DNA of 64,000 bases. Source: a virus. A model generated the notes under the pieces. That model was not told the DNA's origin. It worked only from the letters and a program-made list of their open reading frames with translations, and made no database searches. Within the stretch, counting starts at the first letter, position 1; each line of letters begins with the position of its first letter. Position numbers and translations under genes: made by a program. The DNA lies in the IMG/VR virus record IMGVR_UViG_3300025769_012879, positions 1 through 64,000 of that record; one strand, written 5' to 3'. Of this stretch, positions 1-19,746 are shown piece by piece.

Positions 1-181
1 CACAGGCAAAAGAGTTGATTCCGCAAGTCCCCGATTTCAAACCGGATTTCGTCAAGTCGCTAAATGAGCGGATTGATTCAGGAATCCCACTGACGCCTAA
101 ACAGTTCAAATCATTGAAGAAAGTCGTCTGGTACTTGAAGAAACAGACCGAGCAAAACCACTAATCATTTCAGGGGGTTAC

Positions 182-343
182 ATGACCATTCAGATTTCTA
201 ATGATATAGCACAACTTATTGTTATTGCTACGTTTTCTTTGCTTCTAGTGAAAGTCGTTTTATCTTCACTAGTTACAAGGAAACCCGCGAGACGGAAAAC
301 CACAAGAAAATCAACGAGTTCAAGCAATGGGAAAGAAACGTAA
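182..343 (+). CDS. Small membrane protein, 53 aa (MTIQISNDIAQLIVIATFSLLLVKVV...)
   Basis: Translated by hand. G-rich SD upstream, one hydrophobic helix, basic tail. Confidence 0.55.
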   Translation: MTIQISNDIAQLIVIATFSLLLVKVVLSSLVTRKPARRKTTRKSTSSSNGKET

Positions 344-479
344 GAAAAACAAGAAGTTACACAAGCACAGAAACCCCTACGCTCTAAGTCTTTGTTTTCA
401 CAAAGGAAAAGGGCATCACGGCGATAAACGCAAGAAAAACAATAAGTTAGCGTGTCGCAAAAAAGTTCAAGAAGATTGA
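327..479 (+). CDS. Small very basic protein, 50 aa (MGKKRKKNKK...RNPYALSLCFHKGKGHHGDKRKK)
   Basis: Translated by hand. Fits the tightly packed gene run. Confidence 0.55.
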   Translation: MGKKRKKNKKLHKHRNPYALSLCFHKGKGHHGDKRKKNNKLACRKKVQED

Positions 480-489
480 GAGGTTACAG

Positions 490-693
490 ATGGAAGATTG
501 GTCGCGAGAAGATTTAGTTAATGAAATCAACTGGTTACGGGATGTGTCGGATAGGCGATTCAAGCGCAGTCAAGAAATGCGTAATCATATCCAGTACTTA
601 GAGCAGACGGCACGGGCAAGACTCGACACCATCGGCATAATGACTAAGGAAATCAATAGGTTACGAGAGTCTCTTGAGAAAACTCAACGATAA
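490..693 (+). CDS. Hypothetical coiled-coil protein
   Basis: ORF track; SD GAGAGG upstream. Confidence 0.7.
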   Translation: MEDWSREDLVNEINWLRDVSDRRFKRSQEMRNHIQYLEQTARARLDTIGIMTKEINRLRESLEKTQR

Positions 694-707
694 CAGGAGG
701 TTGAAGC

Positions 708-905
708 ATGACAGATAACCAGTGGGAATCAAACGAGATTTCAATGTGGGTCAATAATGATGAATCATTACACCAACTTGCACAACGAAGTGAGTCGTCT
801 AACGATTTCTTCGATGTGCTTGAAATGATTGGGGTTTCTCATCTTGGAGGTATCAAGATAACCCCTTGGAATGTAAGGGAAAGTTGGGAGGACGCAAATG
901 ACTAA
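708..905 (+). CDS. Hypothetical acidic protein (WVNNDES motif)
   Basis: ORF track; SD AGGAGG upstream. Confidence 0.75.
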   Translation: MTDNQWESNEISMWVNNDESLHQLAQRSESSNDFFDVLEMIGVSHLGGIKITPWNVRESWEDAND

Positions 906-1206
906 TGATTTCGACCAGTTAACACACGCAGAGATGCGAGCGGTCTACAAGCAAAACCTTAAAGATTTTGAGAGGTTACAGCGCAAGACGCAAGTGCTTG
1001 AAATCCTTAATGAAATGGATGTACCGGACATGAGGAAAGACCTCAATAAAATCGGTAACTTACGTTGGTTGCAGCGTAACTTATTGATTCGAAACGGGAA
1101 TCATCCGAAGGCAGTGGAAGTAGTTGAAACCATTGCCAAAATGGCGAGAGAGAAAAATAAACAAAATCAACAGGTTATGAAACTACCTGTTATTTCGGAG
1201 GGTTAG
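898..1206 (+). CDS. Hypothetical protein
   Basis: ORF track; SD GGAGG; overlaps the previous stop. Confidence 0.75.
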   Translation: MTNDFDQLTHAEMRAVYKQNLKDFERLQRKTQVLEILNEMDVPDMRKDLNKIGNLRWLQRNLLIRNGNHPKAVEVVETIAKMAREKNKQNQQVMKLPVISEG

Positions 1207-1208
1207 AG

Positions 1209-1301
1209 ATGGATGATTTTACAACTAAAGAGAAGTGTATCTTATTGATATTTGAAGGGATTTTTTGGATGTCTTTCCTTAGTGTTGTCGGAGGGTTATA
1301 A
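1209..1301 (+). CDS. Small membrane peptide, 30 aa (MDDFTTKEKCILLIFEGIFWMSFLSVVGGL)
   Basis: Translated by hand; SD GGAGG upstream. Confidence 0.45.
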   Translation: MDDFTTKEKCILLIFEGIFWMSFLSVVGGL

Positions 1302-1483
1302 TGGAAATGATTAAACGTACCGGAATCATTAAGGTTTCTCAGAGTGGAATGGCGCAAGAAATAGTTATGCGTTATCAAGGACTTAGACTACAAAAGGTAG
1401 AAAGTGCTCAGATTCCACTAAGATACAAGAGGAATCATTATGTTAATATTTACAAGGACTTAAAGTCTATTGTAAAGAAATAA
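1301..1483 (+). CDS. Hypothetical protein
   Basis: ORF track; SD GGAGG; TAATG coupling to the previous ORF. Confidence 0.55.
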   Translation: MEMIKRTGIIKVSQSGMAQEIVMRYQGLRLQKVESAQIPLRYKRNHYVNIYKDLKSIVKK

Positions 1484-1696
1484 AACAATATTCAGCACTT
1501 ACACTATATTGCCCTATAAACGCAGTAAAGTCGGTAGGTTAGGGTAGGCATAGGGTAAGTCCTTAAAAGCGTGTTATATTAAGGGGTTAAGCGTTTGGTA
1601 AGGTAAGGCGTAAGGGGTTGATATCATAATGATATATAGCACACCCATAATCCCTTAGATTATATAGTGTTATAAAGGCGCTAAGGAAACAAAGGA

Positions 1697-1879
1697 ATGC
1701 TGCAAGTTATTATAATCATTGCGCTTTTGACTGCCTTATTTGCCTTATCATCCATAGGGTTAGGCATCATTAGGGCACTACTTGGGAAGGGTATAGACCT
1801 TTTCTTTTTTATTATCAAGGGGTTAGTGTGGTTGGTTTGCGTCCTTATTACCATTCCCATTGTTTTGGCGCTATTATAA
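1697..1879 (+). CDS. Small two-helix membrane protein
   Basis: Entirely hydrophobic; AAGGA SD. Confidence 0.55.
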   Translation: MLQVIIIIALLTALFALSSIGLGIIRALLGKGIDLFFFIIKGLVWLVCVLITIPIVLALL

Positions 1880-1899
1880 GCAACCTAACTACAAGGCGT

Positions 1900-2150
1900 A
1901 AAAGGGCGATTTTATTTAACTTTCTCTAGAGTGAGATAAAAAAATAAAAACGCCAACTTACGCAACACGTTAAGTTTGCTAACGGGTACCCCTACCCCCC
2001 CGTATCCTATAGCGTTTTGCCGGAATATACTTAACATAATGATAACAGTGTGTTATGATCGCGCTTAGGTACACGAACATATCGCCGGTATTTTTTGGAG
2101 ATTTGGGTTTTATTAGGGGAACTTAGGTATAACTTAGGCAAGTAAAGGGT
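1900..2150. other. Non-coding segment, candidate genome terminus or packaging region
   Basis: GGGTACCC palindrome 1984-1991 then CTACCCCCCC; ATAACA-gtg-TGTTAT inverted repeat 2042-2056; AACTTAGG tandem 2120-2138. The IHF-like array stops here. Confidence 0.35.
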
Positions 2151-2157
2151 CTATTTA
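2151..2157 (+). promoter_or_regulatory. Putative late promoter element CTATTTA
   Basis: Recurrent intergenic motif upstream of virion-type genes. Confidence 0.55.
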
Positions 2158-2182
2158 ATATATTAACCCTGGGGAAATACCG

Positions 2183-2680
2183 ATGAAAATTACAAAAGAC
2201 TTATTACGCGAAATGATTAAAGAGGAACTCGTTGCTCTTAAAGAGGAAATGGGTCTTAAACCCGACCAATTGACACCCGAACAGCAAGCGCTTAGAAATA
2301 AAAAGGTAATGCAATTTTTAAGCGATCCTGCTGTTCATAAATTACAAAAAAAGTATGGAATATTTTTAAGTAAAGTGCCCTTAGGTGATGACTATAATAG
2401 TTATGATCTGCTTAGTTACTTTGGATTAGATGCTAAAGCAGTCCGTCAAAAGGATGTATCTGATGTAATGCCCAACCTTAAGAAATCAGGTGAAAACCTT
2501 TCAAATAAGGAATATAATAAGGCTCTTTATCAGTACGTTCGCACCAAAAAGATCGTTGATGGAATGAAAAATTCGCCTTTCTATGATCAGGAACTATCTG
2601 ATCTTCGCAAACAGCGTGCTGCTTTGTTAAAAATGCGCGCAAAAGATCCAACCCTTCCCGAACCTCCCCCTATTGGTTAA
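2183..2680 (+). CDS. Putative internal head protein with MKITKDLLREMIKEE leader
   Basis: Amphipathic leader ending in Glu; late motif upstream. Confidence 0.6.
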   Translation: MKITKDLLREMIKEELVALKEEMGLKPDQLTPEQQALRNKKVMQFLSDPAVHKLQKKYGIFLSKVPLGDDYNSYDLLSYFGLDAKAVRQKDVSDVMPNLKKSGENLSNKEYNKALYQYVRTKKIVDGMKNSPFYDQELSDLRKQRAALLKMRAKDPTLPEPPPIG

Positions 2681-2805
2681 TTGTTTTCTATGGTGGGGCG
2701 GCACTCACATTTCTGTGCTGTCTCACCTATAGCGTGACCTAACGCAAAAGAGAATATAATCAGGATGATAGTGCATAGATAAAGATCTATTCGTTTATAG
2801 GGCAT
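2677..2805 (-). CDS. Small membrane protein, 42 aa (MPYKRIDLYLCTIILIIFSFALG...)
   Basis: Translated by hand; AGGAGG SD; overlaps the HNH gene end. Confidence 0.55.
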   Translation of the reverse strand: MPYKRIDLYLCTIILIIFSFALGHAIGETAQKCECRPTIENN

Positions 2806-3178
2806 TGTTGTCCTCCTGGGAATGGATAAGGTATTGGATTGCTGCTTCTAAGGATTTTATATTGTCTTTGAAATATCCTAGACCTAAGTTACAGTTATTA
2901 CATAATAAACCTCGGACTTTTCCGGTTGAATGACAATGGTCAACTTTCCAACCTCCAATACCTCGGGGTTCATCTGTCCCGCAAATTTTGCATTTATTAT
3001 TTTGGTTCTCGACCATGCGGTCATATTGGTCTGCGTCTATGCCATATTTGCGAAGTAGTTCTTTAGATTTTAATTCTTTCCTATTGAATTTATTATATAA
3101 TTTGCGTTGATTCTTTCTACGCTCTTTTCGGGCATCATACGCTTTGTCTAAATTTTCGCTATATTTGTTATTCGGCAT
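2795..3178 (-). CDS. Endonuclease VII-family HNH nuclease
   Basis: CKIC...VDHCHSTGKVRGLLCNNCNLGLG. ATG at 3178 preferred over the track start 3199 because TATAAT lies 7 nt upstream of it. Confidence 0.9.
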   Translation of the reverse strand: MPNNKYSENLDKAYDARKERRKNQRKLYNKFNRKELKSKELLRKYGIDADQYDRMVENQNNKCKICGTDEPRGIGGWKVDHCHSTGKVRGLLCNNCNLGLGYFKDNIKSLEAAIQYLIHSQEDNNAL

Positions 3179-3267
3179 GATTATATTATACCGAACCAAA
3201 AAATTTTCTTAATCCCAAAATCTCGCCCCGCAAAAAAATCGCGGGAATATTTTTCCAGATTTTGAAT

Positions 3268-3274
3268 CTATTTA
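3268..3274 (+). promoter_or_regulatory. Putative late promoter CTATTTA, 4 nt before ATG (leaderless)
   Basis: CTATTTA-TTAC-ATG; no SD. Confidence 0.6.
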
Positions 3275-3278
3275 TTAC

Positions 3279-4739
3279 ATGGAAAAAATACTAAACGATT
3301 GGCGTTCTTATGTCAATGAACAAACTGAGGGTTTGTCAGATCTTCAAAAGCAGAGAGCATCTGAGTATGTTGCCTCCCTTGTCAAGTTTTTAATAGAGGC
3401 ATCAGAACCAAAACTTAAAGATGTGGTTTTTGAATTGATCACAAACTGGAATAAAAAACAAAGTCGCGGCGAATACGAGGGTCGTACTGACCATGTTATA
3501 CGTTCTAAGGGAAAAGCATTTATTAATAAAGCAGAATCTGCTGCGGACAAACTGCTTCAAACTGTTATTAATTTTGAGAAAAGAAATCAATTACCATCAC
3601 TATTAAATGGTTATAGAAAAATAACTGGATCATCTTTAACCGATGATCTTCAAAAAATTATTATTTTACCAATGTCAGTTGGCAAAAAAATTGAACAAAT
3701 TCTGAAGATTTTTGGTACGACCAAAAAAACACCCGCAGAACTAAAATCAAATAATTTATTTTTTCCCGGTATGCAAATTATTTTAAAACAACTTGCAAAA
3801 AGTTTTCTCAGAGAAGGTGCTCCACTTAATGTAAGAATGCTTGGTTTATACCTTTCTAAATTTAAAGGACCTTTTACAGAAAAAAACTTAACACAATCCG
3901 AAAAAGAATTTATTAAACAAATATGTTTATTTGAGATGAATTCGCGCTGGGTGGAGGATGTGCTGGGTAAAGCGTGGGGCGAGGTATGGGACAATACATT
4001 CTTTGGAGACGACTACTGGGCTAAACCGATTCGTCAGCGTGAAACTCCACAAAGGGATGCTGCGATTGCCGCTTTCAAGCGATCAGAGTCAAGGTCGGAA
4101 AAACAATATAAAAAATTTAAAAAAGGTGAACTTGGTCCAACTGCGATTATGCCAACACCATCAAGTTATGATGGAAACATGAGAGTGTATGGCAAATCAG
4201 GCAAGGCGGGCGATATCGCCACTTTAGAAACAACATCATTTAAAATTGGCGGCAAGGGCAAGAGTTATCGATCCTATACCAAGTATAAAAAACTGTTTTT
4301 TGGCGGTGGAACAACAAATATTGACAAAGGCAAAATTGTCGGTACTGTTGGGGAAGATACGGCAGATGCCCTTGGTACAGCACTGGGGCAATTTATATTT
4401 AAAGTTGACACTAAAAGTAAACAAATTCGTATTTTTGATAACTATGATTTTAATCAGGCAGATCGAGCAATGAACCTTGAAAAAGCTGGGGAGCGTGGTC
4501 AAAAATTTATGTCCACACCTTCAATTGAATTTGCAAAACACACCAAACACGCTTTGAAGAATCTTTTGAAAATTATAAAAAAGAATGAAAAATTTAATCT
4601 TTTTAATTTTATTGAAGATATGTCTACAATGGTTGCAATTGTAACTAAAAATTATAACGGTTACCCAGTTAGAATAACCTTAAAATATGATAACAACCCT
4701 TCAAAAGTTAAACCGGGTCTATGGAAAGGGTTTAGTTAA
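3279..4739 (+). CDS. Putative head-packaged protein with MEKILNDWRSYVNE leader
   Basis: Leader resembles that of 9258. C-terminal LGQF...DNYDFN domain of unknown function. Confidence 0.65.
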   Translation: MEKILNDWRSYVNEQTEGLSDLQKQRASEYVASLVKFLIEASEPKLKDVVFELITNWNKKQSRGEYEGRTDHVIRSKGKAFINKAESAADKLLQTVINFEKRNQLPSLLNGYRKITGSSLTDDLQKIIILPMSVGKKIEQILKIFGTTKKTPAELKSNNLFFPGMQIILKQLAKSFLREGAPLNVRMLGLYLSKFKGPFTEKNLTQSEKEFIKQICLFEMNSRWVEDVLGKAWGEVWDNTFFGDDYWAKPIRQRETPQRDAAIAAFKRSESRSEKQYKKFKKGELGPTAIMPTPSSYDGNMRVYGKSGKAGDIATLETTSFKIGGKGKSYRSYTKYKKLFFGGGTTNIDKGKIVGTVGEDTADALGTALGQFIFKVDTKSKQIRIFDNYDFNQADRAMNLEKAGERGQKFMSTPSIEFAKHTKHALKNLLKIIKKNEKFNLFNFIEDMSTMVAIVTKNYNGYPVRITLKYDNNPSKVKPGLWKGFS

Positions 4740-19552: not shown

Positions 19553-19743
19553 GTTTAAATAGAAACGATGTAAAGACAGAAATTTATCGCCTACTTGAAC
19601 TTGGTACAATCACTGATGACCAAGCAAATCAAATTTTTGATAAATCGTATGAAAATCAACAAAACAATAGTGATGTAATGCTAAATATAAGTGACACTGC
19701 TGCTGAGTGGGTTCAACAAAAAATAACAGAGTTAGGATTTTAA
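19549..19743 (+). CDS. Hypothetical protein
   Basis: ATGA-type overlap within the operon. Confidence 0.65.
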   Translation: MSLNRNDVKTEIYRLLELGTITDDQANQIFDKSYENQQNNSDVMLNISDTAAEWVQQKITELGF

Positions 19744-19746
19744 TAA

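What the first reader, a model, noticed from the sequence alone, without database searches (positions are those of the whole stretch)
8..1825. Dense array of IHF-like binding sites written through the coding sequence of a run of tiny genes
Seen: 7 exact WATCAANNNNTTR matches and at least 13 near matches in about 1.9 kb, on both strands, often 40-100 bp apart. My rough composition-based expectation is well under 1 exact match. Many share a longer form, e.g. TAAtgAAATCAActggTTAC, TAAggAAATCAAtaggTTAC, CAAgtgcTTGAAATccTTA. The dense array stops before about 1900. Established: WATCAANNNNTTR is the IHF consensus; IHF bends DNA sharply and acts at lambda cos. Inference: this is a protein-coated genome segment. 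Host IHF or a phage protein may compact it to ratchet entering DNA, shield an end from nucleases, or build a packaging or origin complex. The small ORFs may be partly shaped by this second code.
Basis: partly seen in the sequence, partly recalled or inferred. Interest (0 to 1): 0.85.

Follow-up and report, generated by a model that had tools for sequence, protein, structure and literature searches.

The report
IHF-like site array in early genes
The last 1.3 kb of an uncultured aquatic T4-like phage's early genes holds far more copies of a 13-base motif matching the docking site of the DNA-bending protein IHF than chance or the encoded proteins explain, and close relatives keep it, so it is probably a real protein-binding array, though the binding protein and its purpose are untested.

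Summary
The count is right. There are 7 exact WATCAANNNNTTR matches at 525-1825 and 13 one-mismatch matches at 8-1600. Only 17 more exact matches occur in the other 139 kb of the contig, which is chance level.

Shuffles give far fewer exact matches: 0.17 with dinucleotide shuffles and about 2 with per-gene synonymous-codon shuffles (never 7 in 1000). Related metagenome contigs with dS of 0.2-0.7 carry 5-10 exact sites at the same locus.

About half the sites are the peptide I-[N/K]-x-L of paralogous coiled-coil genes. It is always written ATC...TTR, on a 21-nt heptad grid. Other sites use another reading frame, the opposite strand or the intergenic DNA, so this is a DNA-level motif.

The array is not universal. 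Lineages without the coiled-coil genes have 0-2 sites, and one near-identical variant has swapped out two sites.

No genome end is present. Other assemblies run 0.9-6 kb further upstream through more small genes, and there is no terminal repeat. The array lies at the distal end of an early gene cluster, just before a conserved non-coding region and the first late promoter.

Best reading (about 0.45): an array of sites for an IHF-type bending protein. Main rival (0.25): a by-product of repeats and duplication. This scan has reported IHF-like intergenic double sites in other uncultured phages.

The parts
525..537 (+). Exact site AATCAACTGGTTA in coiled-coil gene g67cc, heptad unit 1 (peptide E-I-N-W-L)
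   Evidence: Kept in L036, L037 and L038.
588..600 (+). One-mismatch site in g67cc unit 2 (H-I-Q-Y-L), 63 nt from each neighbouring site
651..663 (+). Exact site AATCAATAGGTTA in g67cc unit 3 (E-I-N-R-L)
1077..1089 (-). Exact site on the antisense strand of g102 (peptide R-N-L-L-I-R). The Leu codon in the spacer varies (TTA/CTG/TTG/CTA) while the core Leu stays TTG in 11 sequences.
1165..1177 (+). Exact site in g102, reading frame 0 (N-Q-Q-V-M). It shares a 17-of-18 word with a coiled-coil site that is read in another frame.
1373..1385 (+). Exact site in g60, specific to this lineage (two or more mismatches in relatives)
1577..1623 (.). Intergenic mirror pair: a site at 1577 (+; one mismatch here, exact in L036, L037 and L024) and a site at 1611 (-), 34 nt apart. 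Their spacers are not complementary, so this is not a hairpin.
1813..1825 (+). Exact site TATCAAGGGGTTA in the small membrane gene g60tm (I-K-G-L). The same 12-mer occurs in the coiled-coil gene and in the intergenic site of relatives.
347..449 (+). Two one-mismatch sites (347, 437) inside the 24-nt internal repeat of the basic 50-aa gene g50b
   Evidence: (repeat D9).
490..693 (+). g67cc, a 67-aa coiled-coil ORF with a 21-aa (63-nt) repeat. dN/dS is 0.14, so it is a real gene.
898..1206 (+). g102, a 102-aa ORF with 140 homologues. The three-helix model is confident (pLDDT 88) but has no structural neighbour.
3..1483 (+). Tightly packed run of tiny + strand genes (g70 3' end, g53tm, g50b, g67cc, g65, g102, a 30-aa ORF, g60) that carries the array. 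It is the distal end of an early cluster.
   Evidence: dN/dS is 0.11-0.46.
1880..2182 (.). Conserved non-coding region bordering the array, 88.5% identical to L024, more than the flanking genes. It holds an inverted repeat, a C-run, a sigma70-like promoter, 11-nt tandem repeats and the late-promoter motif at 2151.

Best explanation
The stretch is an array of binding sites for a sequence-specific, DNA-bending architectural protein of the IHF type. The binder is most simply the host's IHF. Otherwise it is an unidentified phage protein with the same specificity.

The sites are superimposed on the coding sequence of a cluster of tiny early genes. The motif runs beyond the 13-base core: W-W-W at -12 to -10, AA at -5/-4, A at -1, then WATCAA, two free bases, R-G, and TTA.

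In the paralogous coiled-coil genes the motif rides on the heptad peptide I-[N/K]-x-L. Sites there fall 63, 84 or 126 nt apart. These are whole multiples of 21 nt, which is two turns of DNA, so all bends would be in phase. This geometry follows from the heptad code; it was not tested.

The array lies at the distal end of the early cluster, directly before a conserved non-coding control region and the first late promoter. Inferred, not shown: bound protein folds several hundred base pairs into a compact complex that damps or insulates early transcription at the early/late boundary, rather than marking a DNA end.

Shown: the enrichment, its independence from codon usage, its use in several frames and on both strands, and its presence in relatives. 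Inferred: that a protein binds, which protein it is, and the effect.
For: - Enrichment: 7 exact sites against 0.17 (dinucleotide shuffle) or about 2 (per-gene codon shuffle) expected. None of 1000 shuffles reached 7.
- Relatives give the same result: L037 10 against 4.6, L038 8 against 2.1, L040 5 against 2.05 (p=0.012).
- Elsewhere in the genome the motif is at chance level.
- All 45 I[NK]xL peptides in the coiled-coil genes of every lineage are written ATC...TTR. Elsewhere in the genome only 2 of 36 are, and in other module genes 0 of 4.
- ATC is 19% of Ile codons genome-wide. It is the majority codon at 36% of the other conserved Ile columns in the module.
- The only synonymous change seen at motif Leu codons is TTA/TTG, which the consensus allows.
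- The same 17-of-18 word is read as N-K-I-N-R-L in one gene and K-Q-N-Q-K-V in another. Further sites lie on the antisense strand and, as a mirror pair with non-complementary spacers, in intergenic DNA.
- Positions the search did not specify carry information: R-G before TT, A at -1, W at -12 to -10. Upstream flanks are 62% A+T against 52% downstream, Wilcoxon p=0.005. This matches the published IHF layout of a core in one half and an A/T tract in the other.
- The stricter pattern AWATCAANNRGTTR has 4 matches in 141 kb, and 3 are in the array.
- The ORFs are real genes (dN/dS 0.11-0.46) with dS of 0.2-0.7 between lineages.
Against: - The array is not a constant of the locus. Lineages without the coiled-coil genes (L024 group, the 85-kb contig G001) have 0-2 exact sites.
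- A variant more than 99% identical (L011) has replaced g67cc and its two sites with another cassette.
- Synonymous positions in the motif core are not significantly more conserved than others (0.068 against 0.136, p=0.07, and that test is biased by how sites were chosen). Column-wise Fisher tests give p=0.25 and 0.37.
- Codons flanking the g102 sites are just as invariant.
- Several coiled-coil sites are recent duplicates of one another, so there are about 9-12 independent sites, not 16.
- About 10 of 12 site classes lie on the sense strand. A symmetric need for bending does not predict this.
- The region has a general excess of repeated short words.
- The host is unknown and no HU/IHF gene is on the contig.
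- No DNA-binding fold was found among the module's proteins.
Confidence: 0.45

Rival explanations
1. By-product with no DNA-level function. Coiled-coil genes need I-[N/K]-x-L every three heptads. Tandem and paralogous duplication copied one codon spelling. The few sites outside these genes are leftovers of the same local copy-and-paste that builds such hyperplastic ORFan regions, plus chance.
For: - Half or more of the exact sites in every lineage lie in g67cc/g90cc, on a 63-nt grid.
- Units 2 and 3 of g90cc are alike over 30 nt or more.
- Lineages without these genes have 0-2 sites.
- No significant extra synonymous conservation was found.
- The region has an excess of other repeated 10-12-mers in mixed frames: 20 pairs against 6.8 expected.
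- Cassettes are gained and lost at shared ribosome-site words.
Against: - Flanks of most repeat units have diverged while the 13-19-nt core has not.
- Spelling is 45 of 45 ATC...TTR, with dS of 0.2-0.7.
- The five sites outside the coiled-coil gene in this window alone compare with about 0.2 expected from the rest of the genome.
- The same word is used in another frame, on the other strand and in non-coding DNA.
Confidence: 0.25
2. An RNA-level signal in the early transcript. The sense-strand word AAAUCAAnnGGUUA would be recognised by a phage or host RNA-binding protein or nuclease, for example to time early-mRNA decay as T4 RegB does at GGAG.
For: About 10 of 12 site classes are on the sense strand of one co-directional gene run. 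The 3' half is rich in AGG/GGGG, like a ribosome-binding site.
Against: - The antisense site in g102 is exact in 7 of 11 sequences and within one mismatch in all 11.
- The intergenic element is a mirror pair.
- There is no Rfam match and no consistent hairpin.
- No start codon lies at a fixed distance from the sites.
Confidence: 0.1
3. Recombination words: short shared sequences that let co-infecting relatives, and the repeats themselves, exchange or resize cassettes. This is the logic of PeSL-mediated shuffling in T4-type hyperplastic regions.
For: - Gene content between gp96 and g65 is mosaic across lineages.
- The coiled-coil gene occurs as 70-, 90- and 147-aa forms that differ by whole repeat units.
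- L011 shows a cassette swap.
- PeSL precedent: PMC2839356.
Against: The mapped swap junctions lie at the ribosome-site word GAGAGGTTACA and at gene starts, not at the IHF-like motif. The sites have no promoter and no stem-loop. Recombination between repeats would be a consequence of the repeats and does not explain why their core is kept.
Confidence: 0.1
4. One reading: a protein-coated segment at a physical terminus that ratchets injection, shields an end or nucleates packaging.
For: The 141-kb contig starts here, an 85-kb contig of a relative ends inside g102, and five assemblies break within about 150 nt of window position 1. A complex non-coding region lies next door.
Against: - Other assemblies read straight through for 0.9-6 kb.
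- Break points are scattered, not at one base.
- They coincide with a segment 95% identical between co-occurring strains, which is typical de Bruijn graph branching.
- There is no terminal repeat.
- T4-type phages package by headful (general knowledge).
Confidence: 0.03

Closest known systems
IHF binding sites of enterobacteria and their phages (lambda attP H1/H2/H', cos I1; core WATCAANNNNTTR/WATCARnnnnTTR)
   Same: The core matches exactly. The site is asymmetric, with A/T-rich DNA on the 5' side. Several sites cluster within a short regulatory stretch.
   Different: - There are 7-10 sites over 1.3-1.5 kb, mostly inside ORFs and on a 21-nt grid.
- The phage is lytic and T4-like, and its host is unknown.
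- There is extra specificity (R-G before TTA, A-rich at -5 to -1) that the E. coli consensus does not require.
- Binding has not been shown.
[quoted passage not shown]
   Same: Evenly spaced short direct repeats in a small early gene region of a T4-type phage, kept in syntenic regions of relatives, with no established function.
   Different: The sequence and unit length differ. Here the sites also occur inverted and in intergenic DNA. No replication function or initiator gene is known here, and some relatives lack the array.
Stoperators of cluster A mycobacteriophages (L5 gp71-type repressors; PMC9283540)
   Same: Many copies of an asymmetric site of about 13 bp, mostly in one orientation relative to transcription. 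The precedent is a bound protein that stops elongation.
   Different: Stoperators are spread genome-wide and mostly lie between genes, in temperate phages with a known repressor. This array is local and intragenic, and no repressor is known.
SPO1 TF1, a phage-encoded HU/IHF-family protein that binds preferred sites among early promoters of the small-gene host-takeover module (own knowledge; no paper read)
   Same: An IHF-family protein acting on a cluster of tiny early genes to shut them down is the mechanism proposed here.
   Different: No HU/IHF-family gene is present on this contig, which is 78% complete. The sites here do not overlap recognisable promoters.
PeSL cassettes of T4-type hyperplastic regions (PMC2839356) and the intergenic double IHF-like elements this scan reported in other uncultured phages (e1-5661710, e1-5860021)
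   Same: Repeated short elements in a plastic early region with cassette turnover. The mirror pair at 1577-1623 resembles the 'double IHF-site' layout.
   Different: There is no promoter and no stem-loop at the sites. Most copies are inside genes, and swap junctions map to ribosome-site words instead.

Membership tests
IHF-type binding site | Core WATCAANNNNTTR | tested here: met
   There are 7 exact and 13 one-mismatch matches in 1.9 kb, against 0.17 exact expected.
IHF-type binding site | A/T-rich element or A-tract in the other (5') half of a footprint of more than 25 bp | tested here: inconclusive
   Only A/T occurs at -12 and -11, and 15 of 16 at -10, across 16 site classes. Upstream A+T is 62% against 52% downstream, p=0.005. 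True 4-6-A tracts are rare, and the classes are partly related.
IHF-type binding site | Bound and sharply bent by an IHF heterodimer | not testable with these tools
   This needs EMSA, footprinting or AFM.
IHF-type binding site | An IHF/HU-family protein is available (host or phage) | tested here: inconclusive
   PF00216 gives no match on the 141-kb contig, which is 78% complete. The host is unknown. Moderate Shine-Dalgarno use and other readers' TTGACA promoters fit a proteobacterium, but the nearest capsid relatives infect Microcystis, Flavobacterium and Rhodothermus.
Iteron-type replication origin (T4 oriE, lambda ori, plasmid ori) | Tandem, evenly spaced direct repeats in one orientation | tested here: inconclusive
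   In the coiled-coil genes the spacing is 63/63/84/126 nt, all on the + strand. The other sites are irregular and two are inverted.
Iteron-type replication origin (T4 oriE, lambda ori, plasmid ori) | Kept at the locus in relatives, with an adjacent initiator gene | tested here: not met
   L024-type and G001 lineages have 0-2 sites. No initiator-like family was found among the module proteins.
Stoperator-type repressor sites | Asymmetric sites in one orientation relative to transcription, spread genome-wide, with a cognate repressor | tested here: not met
   Orientation bias is present, with about 10 of 12 classes on the sense strand. However, the sites are confined to about 2 kb and no repressor was found.
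PeSL regulatory cassette | Strong sigma70 promoter plus terminator stem-loop between genes | tested here: not met
   No promoter or hairpin lies at or at a fixed distance from the sites.
Genome terminus / cos / pac region | A physical end or terminal repeat at this place | tested here: not met
   Other assemblies continue upstream. The first 5 kb has no repeat elsewhere in the contig. Read-level terminus mapping was not possible.

The most novel reading that the evidence does not exclude
A phage uses the arithmetic match between a coiled-coil heptad (21 nt) and two turns of DNA to write an in-phase array of bending-protein sites through a repeat protein's own gene. Gene and DNA scaffold would then co-evolve, and the number of repeat units would set both protein length and the size of a nucleoprotein complex that switches off or insulates the early module at the early/late boundary.
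Probability: 0.15. Interest if true: 0.7.

Novelty: new variant of a known kind. Interest (0 to 1): 0.45.

Why it matters
If a protein does bind, this would be a clear natural case of dual coding. A protein repeat and a regularly phased DNA-binding array would share the same bases in a lytic phage, in the kind of early ORFan region that is usually treated as featureless.

It would also add an intragenic form to the IHF-like intergenic repeats that this scan keeps finding in early regions of uncultured aquatic phages. That would point to a common use of host DNA-bending proteins in early-gene control.

If no protein binds, the case is still useful. It warns that heptad-repeat genes can imitate binding-site arrays.

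Tried and rejected
- **Relatives in public collections.** No DNA relative was found in the phage collection. Single-protein and alignment scans of viral and metagenome contigs found nothing. Relatives of the 486-aa neighbour lie only on contigs of 1.5-1.8 kb.
- **Family searches.** PHROGs and Pfam gave nothing beyond generic coiled-coil matches and the endonuclease VII gene at 2795-3199.
- **RNA features.** There is no Rfam family and no tRNA in 1-3300.
- **Promoter idea.** A MotA-box-like promoter was considered. No -10 element lies at a fixed distance from the sites.
- **g60 as a DNA binder.** I suspected an AbrB-like fold from a remembered N-terminal resemblance. The model was too poor to use (pLDDT 56).
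- **g102 fold.** The model is confident (pLDDT 88), but the best PDB match has E=2.9.
- **Palindrome idea.** I considered the motif as half of an ATCAA-N4-TTGAT palindrome. The 3' halves of the array sites are not TTGAT.
- **Other readings set aside.** DnaA boxes, Fis, FNR, Chi and Type I restriction targets were compared by eye and do not fit the motif.
- **Synonymous-site conservation tests.** They were under-powered and not significant.
- **Literature.** The remembered extended IHF consensus string was not found in the library. The T4 repEA/repEB paper is not held.
Full report
**Where the window lies.** The window is the first 64 kb of a 141,045-bp IMG/VR contig, classed linear and 78% complete. 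The capsid protein is of the T4 gp23 family. Its nearest cultured relatives are distant: Microcystis phage Mel-JY01 at 35%, Flavobacterium phage 'immuto' at 49% over half the protein, and Rhodothermus RM378. Bases 3-1483 are a tight run of tiny + strand ORFs. Then come 213 nt of non-coding DNA, a 60-aa membrane ORF (1697-1879), 300 nt of conserved non-coding DNA, and the gene at 2183.

**Checking the observation.**
- The contig has 24 exact matches in all. The first 1.9 kb is its richest bin, both for exact matches and for matches with up to one mismatch (20, against a mean of 5.2, sd 2.8).
- Dinucleotide shuffles of 1-1900 give 0.17 exact matches. Pooled synonymous-codon shuffles give 1.5, one of which is a fixed intergenic site. 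Per-gene codon shuffles give 1.96 with a maximum of 4 in 1000.
- Outside the array the motif is at chance level.
- The stricter pattern AWATCAANNRGTTR has four matches in 141 kb, and three are in the array.

**Not a genome end.** Looking up the exact 102-aa product of 898-1206 returned ten contigs 99.2-99.9% identical to the window.
- Three of them run 874-1422 nt further upstream, through a Kyano_Gp96-family gene and more small ORFs. That upstream DNA has no exact motif.
- More distant relatives continue 3-6 kb upstream.
- The first 5 kb is not repeated elsewhere in the contig.
- Assembly breaks scatter between -1422 and +561. They cluster at a segment 95% identical between co-occurring strains. 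This is what graph branching produces; a fixed terminus would give a single coordinate.

**Relatives.** The 102-aa protein has 140 homologues at 67-89% identity. Their contigs, plus a DNA-pattern scan, gave about eight lineages of the locus, with dS of 0.2-0.7 and dN/dS of 0.11-0.46. The ORFs are therefore real genes.
- Exact-site counts at the locus are 10 in L037, 9 in L036, 8 in L038 and 5 in L032/L040/L041. Counts above per-gene codon shuffles: L037 and L038 p<0.001, L040 p=0.012; L036, L032 and L041 were not shuffle-tested.
- The L024/Tara lineage has 2 sites (not significant). The end of the 85-kb contig G001 has none.
- Gene content between gp96 and g65 is mosaic.

**Anatomy of the sites.** About half are in two paralogous coiled-coil genes (67 aa here; 70-147 aa elsewhere). 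Their 21-aa units each carry N-[K/E]-I-[N/K]-x-L, read as ..A ATC AAn nnn TTR.
- The spacings are 63, 63, 84 and 126 nt. All are multiples of 21 nt, which is one heptad and also two turns of DNA.
- Every one of the 45 I[NK]xL peptides in these genes, across lineages, uses ATC and TTA/TTG. Elsewhere in the genome 2 of 36 such peptides are spelled this way, and in other genes of the module 0 of 4.
- ATC is 19% of Ile codons genome-wide.
- The remaining sites cannot come from that peptide:
  - one in g102 in frame 0 (N-Q-Q-V-M), sharing a 17-of-18 word with a coiled-coil site read in another frame;
  - one on the antisense strand of g102;
  - one in g60;
  - one in the membrane ORF;
  - a mirror pair in the intergenic DNA, whose spacers are not complementary, so it is not a hairpin.
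- A frequency table over 16 site classes shows information at positions the search left free: R-G before TT, A at -1, AA at -5/-4, and almost only A/T at -12 to -10. Upstream flanks are richer in A+T than downstream flanks (62% against 52%, p=0.005).
- This asymmetry matches the published layout of IHF sites: the core in one half of a footprint of more than 25 bp and, in some sites, an A-tract in the other half (10.1101/382655).

**Limits of the evidence.**
- Some coiled-coil units are recent duplicates, so independent site classes number roughly 9-12.
- Synonymous diversity in the motif core (0.068) is about half that outside it (0.136), but p=0.07 and the site definition favours conserved cores.
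- Column-wise Fisher tests are not significant.
- Codons next to the g102 sites are equally invariant.
- L011, a near-identical variant, has replaced g67cc with a cassette holding a 32-aa ORF. The junctions fall at the ribosome-site word GAGAGGTTACA, not at the motif.
- The region also has an excess of other repeated 10-12-mers.
- Most site classes are on the sense strand.
- No HU/IHF gene is on the contig.
- No DNA-binding family or fold turned up among the module proteins.

**Interpretation.**
- The DNA-level motif is real and matches the IHF core and its asymmetry. I therefore favour (0.45) an array of sites for an IHF-type bending protein, host-encoded or an unknown phage protein.
- Its position suggests an effect on early transcription or on the architecture of that boundary. 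It lies at the distal end of the early run, next to a non-coding region more conserved than the genes around it (88.5% to L024) and next to the first late promoter. That step is inference.
- The main rival (0.25) is a functionless by-product of heptad coding and local duplication.
- Weaker readings are an RNA-level signal (0.10), recombination words (0.10) and a genome-end complex (0.03).

**Comparison with known systems.**
- The nearest sequence match is the enterobacterial IHF site.
- The nearest T4-type precedent is the unexplained cluster of evenly spaced 12-nt repeats at oriE (PMC3016281).
- Stoperators (PMC9283540) and SPO1 TF1 (own knowledge) are functional analogies.
- PeSLs (PMC2839356) share the hyperplastic setting but not the structure.
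- This scan has reported IHF-like double sites between early genes of other uncultured phages. The pair at 1577-1623 resembles those, but I did not compare sequences.
- I rate this a new variant of a known kind, of moderate interest until binding is tested.

Noticed in passing
window 1880-2182 (L024 7030-7335; L036 about 2900-3140): This non-coding stretch is more conserved between lineages (88.5%) than the flanking genes (70-84%). It holds a 31-nt imperfect inverted repeat (1896-1963), a C-run (CCCCTACCCCCCC) and a sigma70-like promoter (TTAACA, 17 nt, TATGAT with TG, 2031-2059). A short GC stem and a T-run at about 2060-2097 follow the promoter, so this may be a small RNA or a control region.
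   Followed up: partly
window 2118-2150; L024 7267-7335: An 11-nt tandem unit ACTTAGGCAAG lies directly upstream of the late-promoter motif at 2151. There are about 2.5 copies here and 4-6.6 copies in L024, at one copy per DNA turn. It looks like an activator or iteron array.
   Followed up: partly
window 18159, 19628, 22065, 35948; contig 93344: There are five perfect ATCAA-N4-TTGAT palindromes in the contig, against 0-2 for other spacings and about 0.5 expected. One lies in the 19553-19746 intergenic gap. They may be operators for a dimeric protein that shares the ATCAA half-site.
   Followed up: partly
L011 240-503 versus window 490-693: This is a cassette swap within one population (more than 99.7% identical downstream). 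The coiled-coil gene is replaced by a segment with a 32-aa hydrophobic ORF, and junctions fall at the shared ribosome-site words. The same 14-mer TTGAGAGGTTACAG also lies inside g102 (968-981).
   Followed up: partly
window 173-181, 478-489, 697-707, 1196-1208, 1289-1300: Five gene starts share an extended ribosome-site word ending in GGTTR (GGGGGTTA, GAGAGGTTA, GGAGGTTG, GGAGGGTTA). This accounts for about a third of the local excess of the 5-mer GGTTA (14 against 2.75 expected).
   Followed up: partly
window 1 +/- 105; G001 contig end inside the g102 homologue (L042): Five independent assemblies break within about 150 nt of window position 1, and an 85-kb contig of a relative ends in g102. 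This is a strain-variable hotspot that fragments assemblies of this phage group.
   Followed up: partly
window 327-479: This 50-aa protein is very basic, has Cys/His residues (C..H..HH..C) and an internal 24-nt repeat (K-R-K-K-N-x-K-L twice). It overlaps the preceding gene and is kept in nearly all lineages (dN/dS 0.11). It is a possible small nucleic-acid binder.
   Followed up: no
window 1532-1625: A G-rich intergenic tract holds repeated GGTAAGG/TAGGG/TAAGGGG units. TAAGG/CCTTA occurs 16 times in 1-1900 against 2.6 expected. It surrounds the mirror pair of sites.
   Followed up: no
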